DNA of 64,000 nucleotides, from positions 9,272 to 73,271 of the forward strand of contig JBHLQM010000005.1 of assembly GCA_048884785.1 (NCBI GenBank). Direction: 5' to 3'. This DNA comes from Candidatus Thorarchaeota archaeon. Lineage in GTDB: Archaea; Asgardarchaeota; Thorarchaeia; Thorarchaeales; Thorarchaeaceae. Both the position numbers and the translations under genes were made by a program. Below, piece by piece: positions 30,429 to 64,000 of this stretch. Each line of letters begins with the position of its first letter. The stretch's first letter is position 1. Below the pieces are notes generated by a model. The model ran no database searches, was not told where the DNA came from, and saw only the letters and a program-made list of their open reading frames with translations.

Positions 30429-31622
30429 ATGAAGAATGTGGCCATCATTGGAAATGGCATGGCAGCTGTGACTGCCATCCGTGAAATTCGGAGTTTTGAT
30501 GAAGATATTCCAATTGATGTTTTTACCGAGGAGCATTACACTTACTATCCGAGACCAAAGCTCATTGACTATATCAGGGGAGATTTAGATGAAGATAAGG
30601 TGATTCAGTATGATGCGAATTGGTACTCGGAAAAGCTTGTGAATCTCCATTTATCCGAAAAGGTGCATGATATAATTCCGGATTCAAGAAGTGTGCTGAC
30701 AAAAACTAATACCTATATTGGATATGACCGAATACTATTAGCAATGGGGAGCCGCCCATTTGTCCCCCCCATTCATGGAACTGAAAAGAAGAATGTTCAT
30801 GTTTTAAGAACACTAGATGATGCAGTTGATATCAGGGAAGCTGTGAAAGGAACAGGTCGAGAGATAATTATTGGCGGAGGAATTTTGGGTATTGAGCTTG
30901 CCGCAGCCATCAAACATTCTGGTGGAGATCCCATAGTAATTTCCAATATCGGTACGCTCTTGCCAGCCCAACTCGACCAAGGAGCAAGTAATGTATTAAT
31001 GTCCAGTCTTCAAAGGATGGGAATCTCTGTTTTGCTTGGTTTCTCCTGCAGCCAAGTTCTAGGACATGAATTGGCAACAGGAGTTATGTCAGATAAGGGA
31101 GATAAAGTAAAAGGAGATTTGATCATAATTGCCGCAGGCATAAGAGCTAACACTCAGATTGCAAAAGATGCTGGTCTTGAAATTGGCCCCGGAAAGGCAA
31201 TCCTAGTTGACAAGTATATGCAGACATCCAAACGAGGCATTTATGCTGCCGGTGATTGTACAGAGTGGAACGGAATCTGTTGGGGAATAATTCCTGTTGC
31301 AATTGATACCGCAAAGATTGCAGCGCAAAACATGATTAATGAAGGGAGCGCAATCTATGAAGGAACTACGCCAAGCAACACACTGCAGGTTGCGAGTATT
31401 GATTTGACTTCAATCGGATTGTTCGAGCCAAAATCCACTGAATACGAGTCGATAGTCATGTCTAGATCTGAGGAAGGTACGTATTATAAGGCAGTTATGA
31501 AGGACCATGTAGTGGTTGGCGGCATCTCTCTCGGAAATAGAAAGGTCGCAATGAAGCTGCGGAAATTGATTCGTGAAAAAACTGATGTATCAGATGTCCG
31601 CCATGAGATATTCGAAGTCTGA
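30429..31622 (+). CDS. NAD(P)H/FAD-dependent oxidoreductase (NADH:rubredoxin oxidoreductase / NirB N-terminal-like)
   Basis: IIGNGMAA, Y.RP.L, LAMGS, IGGGILGIE, IYAAGDC. Confidence 0.88.
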   Translation: MKNVAIIGNGMAAVTAIREIRSFDEDIPIDVFTEEHYTYYPRPKLIDYIRGDLDEDKVIQYDANWYSEKLVNLHLSEKVHDIIPDSRSVLTKTNTYIGYDRILLAMGSRPFVPPIHGTEKKNVHVLRTLDDAVDIREAVKGTGREIIIGGGILGIELAAAIKHSGGDPIVISNIGTLLPAQLDQGASNVLMSSLQRMGISVLLGFSCSQVLGHELATGVMSDKGDKVKGDLIIIAAGIRANTQIAKDAGLEIGPGKAILVDKYMQTSKRGIYAAGDCTEWNGICWGIIPVAIDTAKIAAQNMINEGSAIYEGTTPSNTLQVASIDLTSIGLFEPKSTEYESIVMSRSEEGTYYKAVMKDHVVVGGISLGNRKVAMKLRKLIREKTDVSDVRHEIFEV

Positions 31623-61296: not shown

Positions 61297-63486
61297 TTAT
61301 ATCCAATCGCCTGTTTCAAGCTTTCTAGGTAGATAGACATCCGTTAGATATTCGAAAGAATGGCTTGCAAATGCCTGAATCTCAGCCTTCTCCTTCAACC
61401 GTAGCATCAACTGCAGGTCTTCAACCCATTCTTTATTCTTCTGAACAAAAGGTTCCTTCAGCATCTCTCTCACACGTTTGATGTCCGCAGGCTCCATTGG
61501 AATTCGGACACTCTTTGGAATGTCGAATGCATCAAGATCCCGGCTCAAAACACCGAGCAATTTCAATTCAGGAGTTGCGATAAATGGAGATTCGTAGCTA
61601 AGTCGTTTACTACCTCTAAGAAAGACGGAGTAGATATAGTGTCCATATGGATCGCTGTCGACTAGTGCAAATGCCGGAATTTCAAGTTCTTTCACAAGCA
61701 TCTTTAGAAACGCACGGGTGGCAATATCACCTGACCCCTTTCCAGTGATGACAATGCATGGTTGGCGATTCCAGTATTTTGCCTCTGATAATCTCATAAC
61801 TGCAGCATCCTTCTCAGACACTAGGATGAATTCGGCATCACTCTCAAGAATCTCCAATTGGTCCAAGAACGGTGTTACTGCCCATCCACCCGTTCCCATC
61901 TTTGTAAGATCTATGGTATCGCCACCATCTCTTATGACAACCCGTCCCATCGCTGAACCTCTGGCACTTGCAACAACATGAACACTGTCTCTTGTCGTAT
62001 TCAGCATCGATGATACGTCTTCAATTATTTTATCGCTATACTTCTGGTCTCTGAAGAGGTTCACATCGCTGTAGAAGACCTCACGTTTAGAAGCGTGAAG
62101 ATTGGATCGAAGTAATTGATAGATTATCTCCATAACCCTTGCTGTTCTTGTTGCATCCACCACCGAAGCAAGTGAATGGTAAGGTCTCGACACCGTTTTC
62201 ATACCCAGCAGAAGGAGGTCTCGAAACTCATCCCAGACAATATTGTCACTAGAACGACTTGGAATTTCAAACGCCGGACGACCGGTCATGAGTGTTTCAT
62301 TGAGAACATCAGCCGCAGTTGAAACAAGCCGGTCCGTGGTATCTTTGGACTCCAAGTTGACCACTTCTACTGTTTCTGGTAGATCAGTTGGTAATTCTCC
62401 TGCCTGTTCCATCCTATCAACTTCAGCCCATTGTAGTCTCATCTCTTTGGCGAGTTTCTGCACTGCACGGGGAACTGGAAGGCCAGATTCTTTTCGCAAT
62501 ACTTTGGGTTTTTTCCTTACTGGCGTGTGTACCTTCTTGCGTTTGCTCACAACTACTTCCTCTTGTTTCTTCTTGGTTGTCCGTTTGGGTTTTGTAGATG
62601 GCTTCTCGGCTTGTTCTTCAATGGGTTCAACAAGCGCTTCGTCTTCGTCAATGGTCGGTTCTTCTCCAAGGGGGAGCTTCTTTTCCTTTTCTTTGGATTT
62701 TGGAGCTTTGGTTGATTTGACTGAAATTGTTTCGGGCTCCCCTGCAACAGTCCTTAATTCATAGGCTTTCATATAATCACGAGCAGCTGCAACGATCCGG
62801 GTCGCTTTATCAAGTCCAAGACCTTCTATTCTCGCGGCTATTCCTGAAGGAGATGCTCTTGAGAGTCGTGCAATTGAGTTGTATCCAGCGGAGTCAAGGG
62901 TCATAGCTAGTTTTGATCCCACTCCAGGAATCTCTGTTAGTGCAGGTCTTGTGCTTTCTTCTTCTTCTCCTCCACTCACCACCTGATCCTCAGGTGCTTG
63001 TTCAGAGGGTGGTTTCAGTAGTTTCTTTGCATCCAATACAAGCCTTTCTGCACCACTCTTGCTGAGTCCTTCCACCTTCTTTGATAGTGAGTCAGCTCGA
63101 GCTCGAGAAATCTTCTCCACGGAGCCATATCCTGCAGAGATCAGTCTTTCTGCTAGTTTTGCCCCAACACCGGGGAGAGTCATTGGACTGGTCCCCTCAG
63201 GCTCAGGCGCGGGTGATTCTTTCTTGACTGCCTGTTTCTTCGAAGATGTATCATCCTTCTTTTTCTTAGTAGAATCTTTGGCTTTCTTCACGGGCTTTTT
63301 TGCTAATGGCTCCTTGCCTGTTTTTTTCTTTGAAGACCTCTTCTTGCTAGTGCTCTTTTTAGTCGGAGCCTTTTGTCCAGTAACTTTTTCTTTCTTGGGA
63401 GACGCTTTCTTTTTTGGGGACGATTCGTTCATTACATCGCCTAGAGTTGTTTGAACTGCCTTATCTGGTAGTTTTTTCTTCGCCAT
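61297..63486 (-). CDS. top6A: DNA topoisomerase VI subunit A with long N-terminal Lys-rich/HhH extension
   Basis: IPSRS..N, KREVFY (catalytic Tyr), EKDA, TGKG..D.ATR, DSDPYG TOPRIM, KAEIQA. Confidence 0.93.
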   Translation of the reverse strand: MAKKKLPDKAVQTTLGDVMNESSPKKKASPKKEKVTGQKAPTKKSTSKKRSSKKKTGKEPLAKKPVKKAKDSTKKKKDDTSSKKQAVKKESPAPEPEGTSPMTLPGVGAKLAERLISAGYGSVEKISRARADSLSKKVEGLSKSGAERLVLDAKKLLKPPSEQAPEDQVVSGGEEEESTRPALTEIPGVGSKLAMTLDSAGYNSIARLSRASPSGIAARIEGLGLDKATRIVAAARDYMKAYELRTVAGEPETISVKSTKAPKSKEKEKKLPLGEEPTIDEDEALVEPIEEQAEKPSTKPKRTTKKKQEEVVVSKRKKVHTPVRKKPKVLRKESGLPVPRAVQKLAKEMRLQWAEVDRMEQAGELPTDLPETVEVVNLESKDTTDRLVSTAADVLNETLMTGRPAFEIPSRSSDNIVWDEFRDLLLLGMKTVSRPYHSLASVVDATRTARVMEIIYQLLRSNLHASKREVFYSDVNLFRDQKYSDKIIEDVSSMLNTTRDSVHVVASARGSAMGRVVIRDGGDTIDLTKMGTGGWAVTPFLDQLEILESDAEFILVSEKDAAVMRLSEAKYWNRQPCIVITGKGSGDIATRAFLKMLVKELEIPAFALVDSDPYGHYIYSVFLRGSKRLSYESPFIATPELKLLGVLSRDLDAFDIPKSVRIPMEPADIKRVREMLKEPFVQKNKEWVEDLQLMLRLKEKAEIQAFASHSFEYLTDVYLPRKLETGDWI

Positions 63487-63491
63487 TCTGC

Positions 63492-64000
63492 CTATTCCTC
63501 CTCACCCTCTTCCAAGCCTTCTCCCAGTGGCATGTCTGCAATCAAATCTGAGCCTTCAATGTCGGTTTCCGTTTCTTCTTGATCAGTATCCAATTCGAAG
63601 CCTGAGATAGAATCTCTGATCTTGCTGGCAATGGTTTCGGGATCATATTTCGTTTTTCCACTTGCATCATTCACAATATTCGACAGACTTGATGCGAATT
63701 GATCAGCATACATTGCAAGAATTCCAGCACGTTTTGCTTTTCGCCTGGCAGTTTCTCTCCTAGTAATGAAGCGTCGGAATTTGCGGCCTGCATCTTCCAG
63801 GGCTAATTTTATCTCCTTAAGTAGAACTTCATCTTCAGCCAATGCCTGTTTGCTCTGACCCTTGAACATGACATGTACATATGCCCCAGCAACATGGATG
63901 AAAACCATGATTGGCCCTCTAGGAATACCGTTATCGAATGTTGCTACTTTGTAATTCTTCCAATTAACAGAGGTTGAAGCTTTCCATGTGGCGCAGTCGC
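63492..64000 (-). CDS. top6B: DNA topoisomerase VI subunit B, C-terminal (transducer) part; 5'-truncated
   Basis: Frame open to the window edge: DCATWKA...VNWKNY...P.GP...IH......F.GQSKQALA...EIKLAL..AGR; immediately upstream of top6A. Confidence 0.88.
   Translation of the reverse strand, partial: DCATWKASTSVNWKNYKVATFDNGIPRGPIMVFIHVAGAYVHVMFKGQSKQALAEDEVLLKEIKLALEDAGRKFRRFITRRETARRKAKRAGILAMYADQFASSLSNIVNDASGKTKYDPETIASKIRDSISGFELDTDQEETETDIEGSDLIADMPLGEGLEEGEEE

What the first reader, a model, noticed from the sequence alone, without database searches (positions are those of the whole stretch)
62460..63486. Topo VI-A (Spo11 homolog) carrying histone-H1-like tails and two RadA-NTD-like HhH domains
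Seen: the protein is 729 aa. Residues 1-95 are extremely Lys-rich with two SPKK motifs. Residues ~102-157 (63016-63183) and ~183-240 (62767-62940) read LPGVGAKLAERLISAGYGSVEKI... and IPGVGSKLAMTLDSAGYNSIARL..., closely matching this window's RadA N-domain ([23 protein letters not shown]). A second basic tract follows, then an intact catalytic core. The N-terminal QTTLGDVM resembles a degenerate PCNA-binding PIP box. Known: typical Top6A is ~360-390 aa; SPKK motifs bind the minor groove in H1; (HhH)2 domains bind DNA non-specifically. Inference: a built-in chromatin-tethering or processivity module, comparable to Topo II C-terminal tails or plant Topo VI accessory subunits, and of interest for Spo11 origins.
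Basis: partly seen in the sequence, partly recalled or inferred. Interest (0 to 1): 0.75.

Follow-up and report, generated by a model that had tools for sequence, protein, structure and literature searches.

The report
Topoisomerase VI-A with HhH tethering arm
In this Asgard archaeon (Thorarchaeota family) the DNA-cutting subunit of the main topoisomerase VI carries a real, conserved 335-residue flexible arm (lysine-rich tracts, two small helix-hairpin-helix domains, and a tip that resembles a sliding-clamp docking motif), which most likely holds the enzyme on DNA and perhaps at replication forks.

Summary
Window 61297-63486 (-) is one 729-aa ORF, 5 nt after the top6B stop and behind a GAGGAGGA ribosome-binding site. 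It holds an intact Top6A core (Tyr472, Glu558, Asp610/612 invariant) after a ~335-aa extension.

- **Extension layout:** an invariant N-terminal motif ([VI]-Q-x-T-L-G-[DE]-[VL]-[VIL]), an 80-aa Lys-rich disordered tract (35% K, net +20), two (HhH)2 domains, a second disordered tract and a conserved basic segment.
- **Distribution:** 84 of 85 genomes of the same family have the long form, with 2, 4 or 7 HhH domains by genus. Other Asgard families have a ~400-aa orthologue without it.
- **PCNA docking:** a complex prediction puts the tip in the canonical PIP site of this genome's PCNA (0.79 against 0.30 for the best control). This shows likeness to solved PIP complexes, not binding.
- **Weaker claims:** the "H1-like" label is compositional only, and SPKK is not conserved. 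RadA's N-domain is a family-level relative, not the closest one. The arm is lineage-specific, so it does not bear on Spo11 origins.

Most likely function: a DNA-tethering or processivity arm, possibly clamp-linked. I found no paper describing it. Earlier agents of this scan reported the same design in other Thorarchaeota genomes.

The parts
63492..64000 (-). 3' end of top6B. The gene runs beyond the window and is 662 aa in the genome. It ends in an acidic C-terminal tail containing GSDLIADM.
   Evidence: The full protein matches M. mazei Top6B at 1e-56 and carries the Pfam transducer domain at 5.2e-43.
63496..63503 (-). GAGGAGGA Shine-Dalgarno-like site about 10 nt upstream of the top6A ATG. 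The top6B stop codon (63492-63494) lies 5 nt before that ATG.
   Evidence: Read directly from the sequence.
63430..63465 (-). N-terminal tip, residues 8-19: the conserved PIP-like motif V-Q-T-T-L-G-D-V-M.
   Evidence: K4, Q12, T14 and L15 are invariant in 50 of 50 aligned orthologues. The motif is present in 116 of 116 full-length orthologues. Residues 8-16 and 18-19 contact PCNA in the predicted complex.
63187..63426 (-). Lys-rich disordered tract, residues 21-100, with two SPKK motifs.
   Evidence: 35% K and net charge +20. pLDDT is 34-45. Composition is conserved across orthologues but sequence is not.
63016..63183 (-). (HhH)2 domain 1, residues 102-157.
   Evidence: Pfam HHH_5, pLDDT 82-89, invariant P105, G108, G140 and S142, net charge +6.
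62941..63015 (-). Acidic, poorly conserved linker, residues 158-182.
   Evidence: Net charge -6 over residues 159-181. pLDDT is below 50.
62752..62940 (-). (HhH)2 domain 2, residues 183-245.
   Evidence: Pfam HHH_5 and NCBIfam RadA N-terminal hit at 3.7e-13. pLDDT is 84-92. It is 44% identical to domain 1.
62527..62751 (-). Mixed-charge, Lys/Glu-rich disordered tract, residues 246-320.
62470..62526 (-). Conserved basic segment P-x-R-K-K-P-K ... K-x-S-G-L-P-V-P, residues 321-339. Specific to this family; function unknown.
   Evidence: S334 is invariant, and P322, K326, P327, K332, L336 and V338 are at least 90% conserved. The segment is present in all family genera inspected and absent from family f2 and other Asgard lineages.
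62404..62469 (-). Helix at residues 340-361. This is where the orthologues of other Asgard families begin to align. It is a candidate for the Asgard/eukaryote-specific extra N-terminal helix of TopoVIA.
   Evidence: Helix in the AF2 model, pLDDT about 60. Matches in other Asgard genomes start at about residue 344. The extra helix is described in PMC9665070.
61300..62403 (-). Top6A catalytic core: 5Y-CAP domain with Tyr472 (codon 62071-62073) and Toprim domain at residues 553-723 with Glu558, Asp610 and Asp612. The stop codon is at 61297-61299.
   Evidence: All four catalytic residues are invariant.

Best explanation
This gene encodes the A (DNA-cleaving) subunit of the organism's conserved, eukaryote-like topoisomerase VI, co-translated with Top6B. 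Each A subunit carries a flexible ~335-residue N-terminal arm that starts at the A-B junction. Reading outward from the core, the arm holds a conserved basic segment, a disordered spacer, two basic (HhH)2 domains, an 80-residue poly-lysine-like tract and a PIP-like tip. The A2B2 enzyme therefore has two arms. I infer that the (HhH)2 domains and the Lys tracts bind the DNA backbone without sequence preference. That would keep the enzyme on DNA between strand-passage cycles, giving higher processivity, better DNA capture and salt tolerance, as the tandem (HhH)2 domains do in topoisomerase V. I further infer, less firmly, that the tip docks in the PIP pocket of PCNA and places the enzyme at or behind replication forks, where positive supercoils and precatenanes arise. 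Shown here: the architecture, its conservation, the fold and charge of the domains, the intact catalytic residues and the partner gene. Inferred: DNA binding (about 0.85), PCNA binding (about 0.5) and any effect on activity.
For: - **Architecture and homology:**
- **Start site:** a 5-nt gap after top6B and a GAGGAGGA site precede the first ATG. Met349 and Met359 have no comparable site.
- **Conservation of the arm:** both HhH hairpins have invariant residues. The composition of the tails is conserved but their sequence is not.
- **Distribution:** 84 of 85 family genomes carry the long form.
- **Copy number:** HhH domains number 2, 4 or 7 by genus, as expected for an additive DNA-binding array.
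- **Fold and charge:** the HhH domains fold confidently and superpose on RadA/Rad51 N-domains at 0.9-1.2 A over 55-59 residues. The tandem also matches the Topo V array. They are basic (+6 and +3), unlike the acidic, protein-binding NusA repeats.
- **Precedent:** Topo V (HhH)2 domains wrap DNA, act as a processivity factor, and transfer processivity and salt resistance to other enzymes (PMC9489208).
- **Tip motif:** [VI]-Q-x-T-L-G-[DE]-[VL]-[VIL] is present in 116 of 116 full-length orthologues, 11-19 residues from the N-terminus and flanked by Lys. It resembles this genome's own terminal PIP boxes: Fen1 QSSLTDFF and QTTLEQWV, RNase HII QTKLEDY.
- **Complex prediction with this genome's PCNA:** score 0.79, best of 3 controls 0.30. 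That mark was reached by 58 of 80 solved complexes and 2 of 110 mismatched pairs. Partner pLDDT is at least 51, and the runs agree in at least 52% of contacts. The interface is PCNA residues 40, 43-47, 130-135, 207, 209, 234 and 250-259, which is the connector loop, the pocket and the C-tail.
- **Genome context:** GyrA was not found in this 91%-complete genome, so the three Topo VI pairs are the only type II topoisomerases detected.
Against: - No experiment exists on any member of this group.
- The tip lacks the two aromatic residues of a canonical PIP box. In the deeper genera with 4-7 HhH domains, positions 7-8 are not even hydrophobic (AN, HE, HD); only Q-x-T-L is kept.
- PIP-PCNA complexes are abundant among solved structures, so the complex pass may reflect likeness rather than binding by this copy.
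- (HhH)2 folds can also bind proteins, as the NusA acidic repeats do; NusA was the top tandem match.
- The full-length model was poor (mean pLDDT 51), so nothing is known about how the arm sits relative to the DNA gate.
Confidence: 0.55

Rival explanations
1. The arm is a DNA tether only. It binds DNA, but the conserved N-terminal Q-x-T-L motif is not a PCNA ligand. It binds some other partner, docks back on Topo VI (for example on the conserved acidic Top6B tail), or is a processing or regulatory signal.
For: The aromatic PIP positions are missing, and positions 7-8 are variable in genera with 4-7 HhH domains. The Top6B C-tail is acidic and carries its own conserved GSDL[IV]AD motif next to where the arm begins. 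The complex pass may come from memory of solved PIP complexes.
Against: The predicted interface is exactly the canonical PIP site, and the score is 0.49 above the best control. The motif's terminal position, its basic flanks and the Q-[ST]-[ST]-L core match this genome's Fen1 and RNase HII PIP boxes.
Confidence: 0.3
2. The arm is a topology-selectivity module. By wrapping or bending DNA flanking the G-segment, as the GyrA/ParC C-terminal domains do, it changes which DNA crossings the enzyme acts on (supercoils versus catenanes, or chirality) rather than simply raising affinity. This would divide labour among the three Topo VI paralogues in a gyrase-less cell.
For: The genome has three Top6B-Top6A pairs, and GyrA was not found. 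The arm starts at the A-B junction beside the DNA gate. This placement rests on established Topo VI structures and is an inference. HhH number varies between genera.
Against: The HhH domains are joined by long disordered, poorly conserved linkers, which is unlike a rigid wrapping surface. No structural or biochemical data exist.
Confidence: 0.1
3. The arm links the enzyme to recombination or chromatin. The RadA-like HhH domains or the H1-like tail would recruit it to RadA filaments or to histone-bound DNA, giving a Spo11-like or linker-histone-like role.
For: radA lies 3.7 kb away in the same window, and its N-domain is 35-40% identical to the HhH domains. The tail composition is K/S/T/P-rich with two SPKK motifs.
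Against: RadA is not the closest HhH relative, and 16 HHH_5 matches exist in this genome. radA is not in the same operon: two genes on differing strands lie between. The Top6B partner is a complete Top6B homologue, so this is a topoisomerase and not a Spo11-type break-maker. SPKK is not conserved, and there is no linker-histone globular domain.
Confidence: 0.04
4. The fusion is an artefact, or the arm is not translated: a mis-assembled fusion or mis-called start, with the real protein starting near residue 340.
For: None positive. Internal Met349 and Met359 exist, and leaderless or internal initiation cannot be excluded from sequence alone.
Against: The same continuous ORF occurs in 84 of 85 family genomes from independent assemblies. 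The HhH domains and the tip are conserved at the amino-acid level. A strong ribosome-binding site precedes the first ATG and none precedes the internal Mets.
Confidence: 0.01

Closest known systems
Canonical archaeal topoisomerase VI A subunit (S. shibatae 2zbk_A, 389 aa; M. mazei 2q2e_A, 369 aa; M. jannaschii 1d3y)
   Same: 5Y-CAP domain with the catalytic Tyr, Toprim domain with Glu and DxD, and a top6B-top6A operon. E-values are 1.6e-58 to 3.1e-32 over residues 385-729.
   Different: These proteins have no N-terminal arm. Here about 335 extra residues precede the core. The core is also of the Asgard/eukaryote-like type rather than the euryarchaeal or crenarchaeal type.
Conserved Asgard / eukaryotic TopoVIA (PMC9665070; PMC12680538)
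   Same: The core is orthologous to the single ~400-aa Top6A of other Asgard families at 55-66% identity. A diatom Top6A ranks 5th among all 50%-identity clusters at 2.3e-96. In a quick tree the core sits on the eukaryote side of a split with 99% SH-aLRT support, apart from this genome's copies 2 and 3. PMC12680538 reports three Top6A copies in Thorarchaeia.
   Different: Neither paper mentions HhH domains or a PIP-like motif. The arm is absent from every other Asgard family searched.
Topoisomerase V of Methanopyrus kandleri (type IC, 12 tandem (HhH)2 domains; PMC9489208)
   Same: A topoisomerase fused to a variable tandem array of (HhH)2 domains. The PDB sequence hit is at 1e-4 over residues 95-155, and there is a Foldseek match to 8df9_B. 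In Topo V the array wraps DNA and acts as a processivity factor.
   Different: The catalytic domain is unrelated (type IC versus type IIB). The Topo V array is C-terminal, compact and contains AP-lyase sites. Here the array is N-terminal, has 2-7 domains and is separated by long disordered charged linkers.
RadA/Rad51 N-terminal (HhH)2 domain
   Same: The same Pfam family (HHH_5), 30-40% identity, and 0.9-1.2 A rmsd over 55-59 residues.
   Different: There is no recombinase core and no special kinship. The HhH modules on this genome's Rpo6 and on a membrane protein are equally close or closer.
Archaeal PIP-box clients of PCNA (Fen1, RNase HII, RFC-L, ligase)
   Same: A terminal Q-x-x-L motif with basic or acidic flanks, and predicted docking in the connector-loop pocket.
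   Different: Positions 7-8 are aliphatic (V/L, V/I/L) rather than aromatic, and they are not conserved in some genera. No topoisomerase VI is reported as a PCNA client in the papers I could search.
C-terminal domains of type IIA topoisomerases (GyrA/ParC CTD, eukaryotic Topo II CTD)
   Same: Appended, non-catalytic DNA- or chromatin-binding regions that tune processivity, substrate choice and localisation. This comparison rests on my own knowledge.
   Different: The folds are unrelated (beta-pinwheel or a purely disordered tail), the attachment point differs, and the enzyme family differs.

Membership tests
Topoisomerase VI subunit A / Spo11 (type IIB) | 5Y-CAP (winged-helix) domain with the catalytic tyrosine | tested here: met
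   Pfam TP6A_N at 3e-19, residues 446-504. Tyr472 in K-R-E-V-F-Y-S aligns with the second Tyr of R-E-A-Y-Y in M. jannaschii 1d3y and is invariant in 50 orthologues.
Topoisomerase VI subunit A / Spo11 (type IIB) | Toprim domain with the metal-binding Glu and DxD | tested here: met
   PF21180 at 9.6e-54, residues 553-723. E558, D610 and D612 are invariant.
Topoisomerase VI subunit A / Spo11 (type IIB) | A Top6B partner, which separates a topoisomerase from a Spo11-type break-maker | tested here: met
   A 662-aa Top6B is encoded immediately upstream. It matches M. mazei Top6B at 1e-56 over residues 157-603. By eye the sequence shows N-box, G1 and G2 ATP-binding motifs, but Pfam did not call the GHKL domain at E<0.001.
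Topoisomerase VI subunit A / Spo11 (type IIB) | ATP-dependent strand passage (relaxation, decatenation) | not testable with these tools
   Needs purified A2B2 enzyme.
(HhH)2 domain, Pfam HHH_5 (RadA-NTD type) | Two helix-hairpin-helix motifs joined by a connector helix, with Gly-rich hairpins | tested here: met
   HHH_5 at 3.7e-23 in two stretches. The AF2 model has four or five helices per domain at pLDDT 82-92. Foldseek matches RadA N-domains at about 1 A rmsd. P105, G108, G140 and S142, and G188, G190 and G222, are invariant.
(HhH)2 domain, Pfam HHH_5 (RadA-NTD type) | Non-sequence-specific DNA binding | not testable with these tools
   Supported only indirectly, by the net positive charge of +6 and +3.
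PIP-box PCNA ligand | Consensus Q-x-x-[LIM]-x-x-[FYW]-[FYW] | tested here: not met
   Q12 and L15 fit the consensus and are invariant, but positions 7-8 are V and M here, V/L and V/I/L in 116 orthologues, and AN, HE or HD in three other genera. At best this is a non-canonical PIP-like motif.
PIP-box PCNA ligand | Docking into the connector-loop and hydrophobic pocket of PCNA | tested here: inconclusive
   The prediction scored 0.79 against 0.30 for the best of 3 controls. That mark was reached by 58 of 80 solved complexes and 2 of 110 mismatched pairs. Partner pLDDT is at least 51, and the runs agree in at least 52% of contacts. The interface is the canonical site. Because similar complexes are solved, this shows likeness and not binding.
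Linker histone H1 / H1-like tail | Globular winged-helix (GH1/GH5) domain | tested here: not met
   No linker-histone family among the Pfam hits at E up to 1.
Linker histone H1 / H1-like tail | K/A/P-rich tail with recurring S/TPKK motifs | tested here: inconclusive
   The tail is 35% K, 10% P and 24% S+T but only 7% A. There are two SPKK motifs here. [ST]P[KR][KR] occurs in 57 of 116 orthologues, a mean of 0.66 against 0.29 in shuffles, at no fixed position.

The most novel reading that the evidence does not exclude
Asgard topoisomerase VI may in general be a clamp-tethered enzyme whose DNA-binding arms were invented repeatedly at the same structural spot, the junction of the Top6A N-terminus and the Top6B C-terminus. 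In Thorarchaeaceae the arm is an HhH array plus a PIP-like tip on Top6A. In the Loki-type family Top6B has a long C-terminal extension with a conserved Q-T-x-L-P-I-I-T-T motif. In Heimdall-group genomes earlier scan notes, which I did not test, report giant HhH arms with a PIP tail on Top6B. If so, coupling of the type II topoisomerase to the replisome and to bulk DNA, the role the Topo II C-terminal domain and plant Topo VI accessory proteins play in eukaryotes, would already have been explored in the archaeal relatives of eukaryotes.
Probability: 0.3. Interest if true: 0.75.

Novelty: new variant of a known kind. Interest (0 to 1): 0.55.

Why it matters
Topoisomerase VI is the main decatenating and relaxing type II enzyme of most archaea and the ancestor-like relative of Spo11. 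All characterised examples are bare A2B2 cores. A natural Topo VI with a built-in (HhH)2 array and a possible PCNA-docking tip would be the first type IIB enzyme with its own processivity or localisation module. It offers a direct test of how DNA tethering changes type IIB activity, using full-length enzyme against arm-deletion enzyme with 2, 4 or 7 HhH domains. It also shows how a cell in which no gyrase was found, and which has three Topo VI paralogues, may divide labour among them. It does not inform Spo11 origins, because the arm is a late, family-specific addition.

Tried and rejected
- **Full-length AF2 model:** mean pLDDT 51 and pTM 0.26. It was usable only for the HhH domains and the disorder calls, not for the geometry of arm against core.
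- **SPKK as a functional motif:** only about 2.3-fold over shuffles and not positionally conserved, so I dropped it as a defining feature.
- **Special kinship with RadA:** rejected.
- **Internal start near residue 340-360:** no ribosome-binding site. This is weak evidence, because leaderless starts are common in archaea.
- **HhH domains in other extended Top6A/Spo11 representatives:** ten proteins of 461-673 aa, including a diatom Top6A, have none.
- **SAP-like domain in Loki-family Top6B:** below the Pfam cut-off (21.9 against 26.3 bits), so it stays a lead only.
- **Literature:** seven full-text searches and reading of PMC9665070, PMC11302465, PMC8185306, PMC11894792, PMC12680538 and PMC7614492 found no description of an HhH-Top6A fusion or a Topo VI-PCNA link. 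Subscription-only papers were not searched.
- **Careful phylogeny:** it did not finish in the time allowed. Only the quick tree (SH-aLRT support, midpoint root) is reported. Rows shorter than 340 aa or longer than 500 aa were left out.
Full report
**What is there.** The window holds one uninterrupted ORF at 61297..63486 on the minus strand, 729 aa. It starts 5 nt after the stop codon of a top6B gene whose 3' end occupies 63492-64000. A GAGGAGGA site lies about 10 nt upstream of the ATG.

Pfam finds two HHH_5 domains (E 3.7e-23; residues 103-155 and about 183-240), TP6A_N (446-504, 3e-19) and the Top6A/Spo11 Toprim domain (553-723, 9.6e-54). NCBIfam Top6A models align only to residues about 377-729. 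Solved Top6A structures of 369-389 aa also align only to residues 385-729, best 2zbk_A at 1.6e-58.

**Is it real?** Yes.
- A word-indexed search returned 491 relatives. The best 120 are all 659-795 aa with the same domain set, and those that carry a source name are almost all labelled Thorarchaeota.
- A six-frame search of 400 genomes of the phylum shows the long form in 84 of 85 genomes of the window's own family, with open frames of about 700-950 aa.
- In the other families the best match covers only residues about 344-729, at 55-66% identity, in frames of about 395-412 aa.
- The arm is therefore a fixed, family-specific addition to an otherwise conserved gene, seen in many independent assemblies.

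**Anatomy and conservation**.

| Residues | Feature | Key evidence |
|---|---|---|
| 1-20 | Basic start, then [VI]-Q-x-T-L-G-[DE]-[VL]-[VIL] | Q, T and L present in 116 of 116 full-length orthologues; K4, Q12, T14 and L15 invariant in a 50-sequence alignment |
| 21-100 | Lys-rich disordered tract | 35% Lys, net +20, pLDDT below 45; composition conserved, sequence not |
| 102-157 | (HhH)2 domain 1 | Strongly conserved, pLDDT 82-92, net +6 |
| 158-182 | Acidic linker | Poorly conserved, net -6 over residues 159-181, pLDDT below 50 |
| 183-245 | (HhH)2 domain 2 | Strongly conserved, pLDDT 82-92, net +3 |
| 246-320 | Disordered K/E-rich spacer | Poorly conserved |
| 321-339 | Basic segment ending K-x-S-G-L-P-V-P | Conserved; S334 invariant |
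| 340-361 | Helix | Where other Asgard orthologues begin to align |
| 362-729 | Catalytic core | Nearly invariant; Tyr472, Glu558, Asp610 and Asp612 invariant |

Foldseek places each HhH domain on RadA/Rad51 N-terminal domains at 0.9-1.2 A over 55-59 residues and 30-40% identity. The tandem pair matches NusA's tandem repeats and the Topo V array.

**Variation in the arm.** Other genera of the family have four HHH_5 domains (frames of 747, 779 and 863 aa) or seven (951 aa). The single genome of the sister family has a 420-aa protein with only a short Lys-rich start. One genome of another Asgard family carries P-P-P-A-E-V-K-K repeats instead. Among the 150 best 50%-identity clusters of the whole Top6A/Spo11 family, only the two clusters at 76-80% identity to this core (746 and 950 aa) are this long. 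Ten other extended representatives contain no HhH domain.

**Which Topo VI is this?** The genome has three top6B-top6A pairs. The other two A subunits are 355 and 381 aa and only 26-28% identical to this core. PMC12680538 reports that Thorarchaeia have three copies and that the conserved copy is sister to eukaryotic Top6A/Spo11.

My data agree that the window's copy is the conserved one:
- It is the orthologue of the single copy in other Asgard families.
- A diatom Top6A ranks 5th of all clusters, at 2.3e-96.
- A quick tree has a split with 99% SH-aLRT support. Copies 2 and 3 fall with 23 unnamed representative clusters on one side. This core, the other Asgard conserved copies and the named eukaryotes fall on the other. 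The tree is quick, midpoint-rooted, and omits rows under 340 aa or over 500 aa.

The upstream Top6B is complete: 662 aa, 1e-56 to M. mazei Top6B. GyrA was not found in this 91%-complete genome, and one type IA enzyme is present.

**The PIP-like tip.** This genome's own terminal PIP boxes read QSSLTDFF and QTTLEQWV (two Fen1 paralogues) and QTKLEDY (RNase HII). Top6A reads QTTLGDVM.

I predicted a complex between residues 1-45, supplied with the orthologue alignment, and this genome's PCNA, supplied with an alignment of 29 Asgard PCNAs:
- The score was 0.79, and the best of 3 controls scored 0.30.
- That mark was reached by 58 of 80 solved complexes and 2 of 110 mismatched pairs.
- Partner pLDDT is at least 51, and the runs agree in at least 52% of contacts.
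- The contacts are Top6A residues 8-16 and 18-19 with PCNA residues 40, 43-47, 130-135, 207, 209, 234 and 250-259. These are the connector loop, the hydrophobic pocket and the C-terminal tail, which together form the canonical PIP site.

PIP-PCNA complexes are well represented among solved structures, so this shows likeness and not binding. Two points count against the PCNA reading. The aromatic pair is missing. In the genera with 4-7 HhH domains, positions 7-8 are not hydrophobic.

**What it most likely does.** The arm leaves the core at the Top6A N-terminus, which in solved Topo VI structures packs against the end of the Top6B transducer. That placement rests on established structures; its application here is an inference.

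Two arms per A2B2 enzyme give four basic (HhH)2 domains, two +20 Lys tracts and two tips on long flexible tethers. In Topo V, tandem (HhH)2 domains wrap DNA and act as a processivity factor, and they transfer processivity and salt resistance to polymerases (PMC9489208). I therefore read the arm as a DNA tether that keeps the enzyme on its substrate (about 0.85). It may also be anchored to PCNA at forks (about 0.5).

The rivals are:
- a tether whose tip has another partner;
- a module that changes topological selectivity;
- a recombination or chromatin link, for which I found no specific support;
- an artefact, which the data effectively exclude.

- *'H1-like':* the resemblance is compositional only. 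No linker-histone domain is present, Ala is only 7%, and SPKK occurs in 57 of 116 orthologues at no fixed place.
- *'RadA-NTD-like':* correct at the family level. However, the two domains are closest to each other (44%). They are as close to the HhH modules on this genome's Rpo6 and on a membrane protein (40-42%) as to RadA (35-40%). The genome has 16 HHH_5 matches.
- *'Spo11 origins':* the core is of the eukaryote-like type, which is already published, but the arm is a late, family-specific addition.

**Novelty.** Seven full-text searches and six papers read found no description of this architecture or of a Topo VI-PCNA link. Public annotation calls these proteins only 'helix-hairpin-helix domain-containing protein' or 'SPO11'.

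I consulted the scan's own notes after forming my reading. They show that other agents found the same design in other Thorarchaeota genomes and reached similar conclusions. Those notes are not independent evidence, and I re-derived each shared claim here.

I rate this a new variant of a known kind.

Noticed in passing
Own genome, contigs C30:12105-13130 (locus L002) and C60:10164-10814 (locus L003): There are two further top6B-top6A operons. The A subunits are 355 and 381 aa, 26-28% identical to the window's core, and have no arm. Copy 3 is very divergent, with a branch length of 3.1 in the tree. GyrA was not found in the genome, which is 91% complete.
   Followed up: partly
Own genome, C36 about 31162-31479 (-) (locus L005): RNA polymerase subunit Rpo6/RpoK carries an acidic N-tail, one HHH_5 domain and a Lys-rich linker in a 251-aa frame. 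This domain is 42% identical to Top6A HhH1. PMC13257274 notes a long structured N-terminus in Thorarchaeota Rpo6 but calls it a helix-loop-helix fragment.
   Followed up: partly
Own genome, C32:16913-17125 (+) (locus L004): A 561-aa frame with many hydrophobic, membrane-span-like segments ends in an HHH_5 domain followed by a Lys-rich tail. HhH modules seem to have been spread across unrelated proteins in this lineage; the genome has 16 HHH_5 matches.
   Followed up: no
window 63492-63600 (-): The Top6B C-terminal tail is strongly acidic and contains G-S-D-L-[IV]-A-D-[MV], which is shared with Top6B of two other genera of the family (loci L008 and L012). It sits next to where the basic Top6A arm begins and could mask the arm electrostatically or serve as a second docking motif.
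   Followed up: no
window 62470-62526 (-): The basic segment P-x-R-K-K-P-K...K-x-S-G-L-P-V-P (residues 321-339, S334 invariant) is conserved in every genus of the family inspected and absent from other Asgard Top6A proteins. No function is proposed.
   Followed up: no
Loci L016 and L049-L078 (Loki-type family f22): Top6B is about 1000-1270 aa in most of the 60 of 61 genomes sampled that have a match. Its C-terminal extension contains a weak SAP-like hit below the Pfam cut-off, a conserved K-x-x-Q-T-x-L-P-[ILV]-I-T-T motif and a conserved ~70-aa terminal domain. The Q-T-x-L core resembles the Thorarchaeal Top6A tip.
   Followed up: partly
Locus L011 (G123, family f17): Here the Top6A core is preceded by more than 200 residues of P-P-P-A-E-V-K-K-type proline/lysine repeats instead of HhH domains. 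This is an independent basic extension at the same position.
   Followed up: no
Own genome, C30:19827-20108 and C10:15912-16157: Two Fen1 paralogues have different C-terminal PIP boxes (QSSLTDFF and QTTLEQWV). This matches the Fen1-1/Fen1-2 duplication reported for Asgard archaea in PMC12680538.
   Followed up: no
Representative proteins P0137, P0140, P0155, P0161, P0182, P0188, P0193, P0207, P0225, P0233: These Top6A relatives of 770-950 aa match the core in two separated stretches. That pattern would fit a large insertion, such as an intein, in the core. I did not examine them.
   Followed up: no
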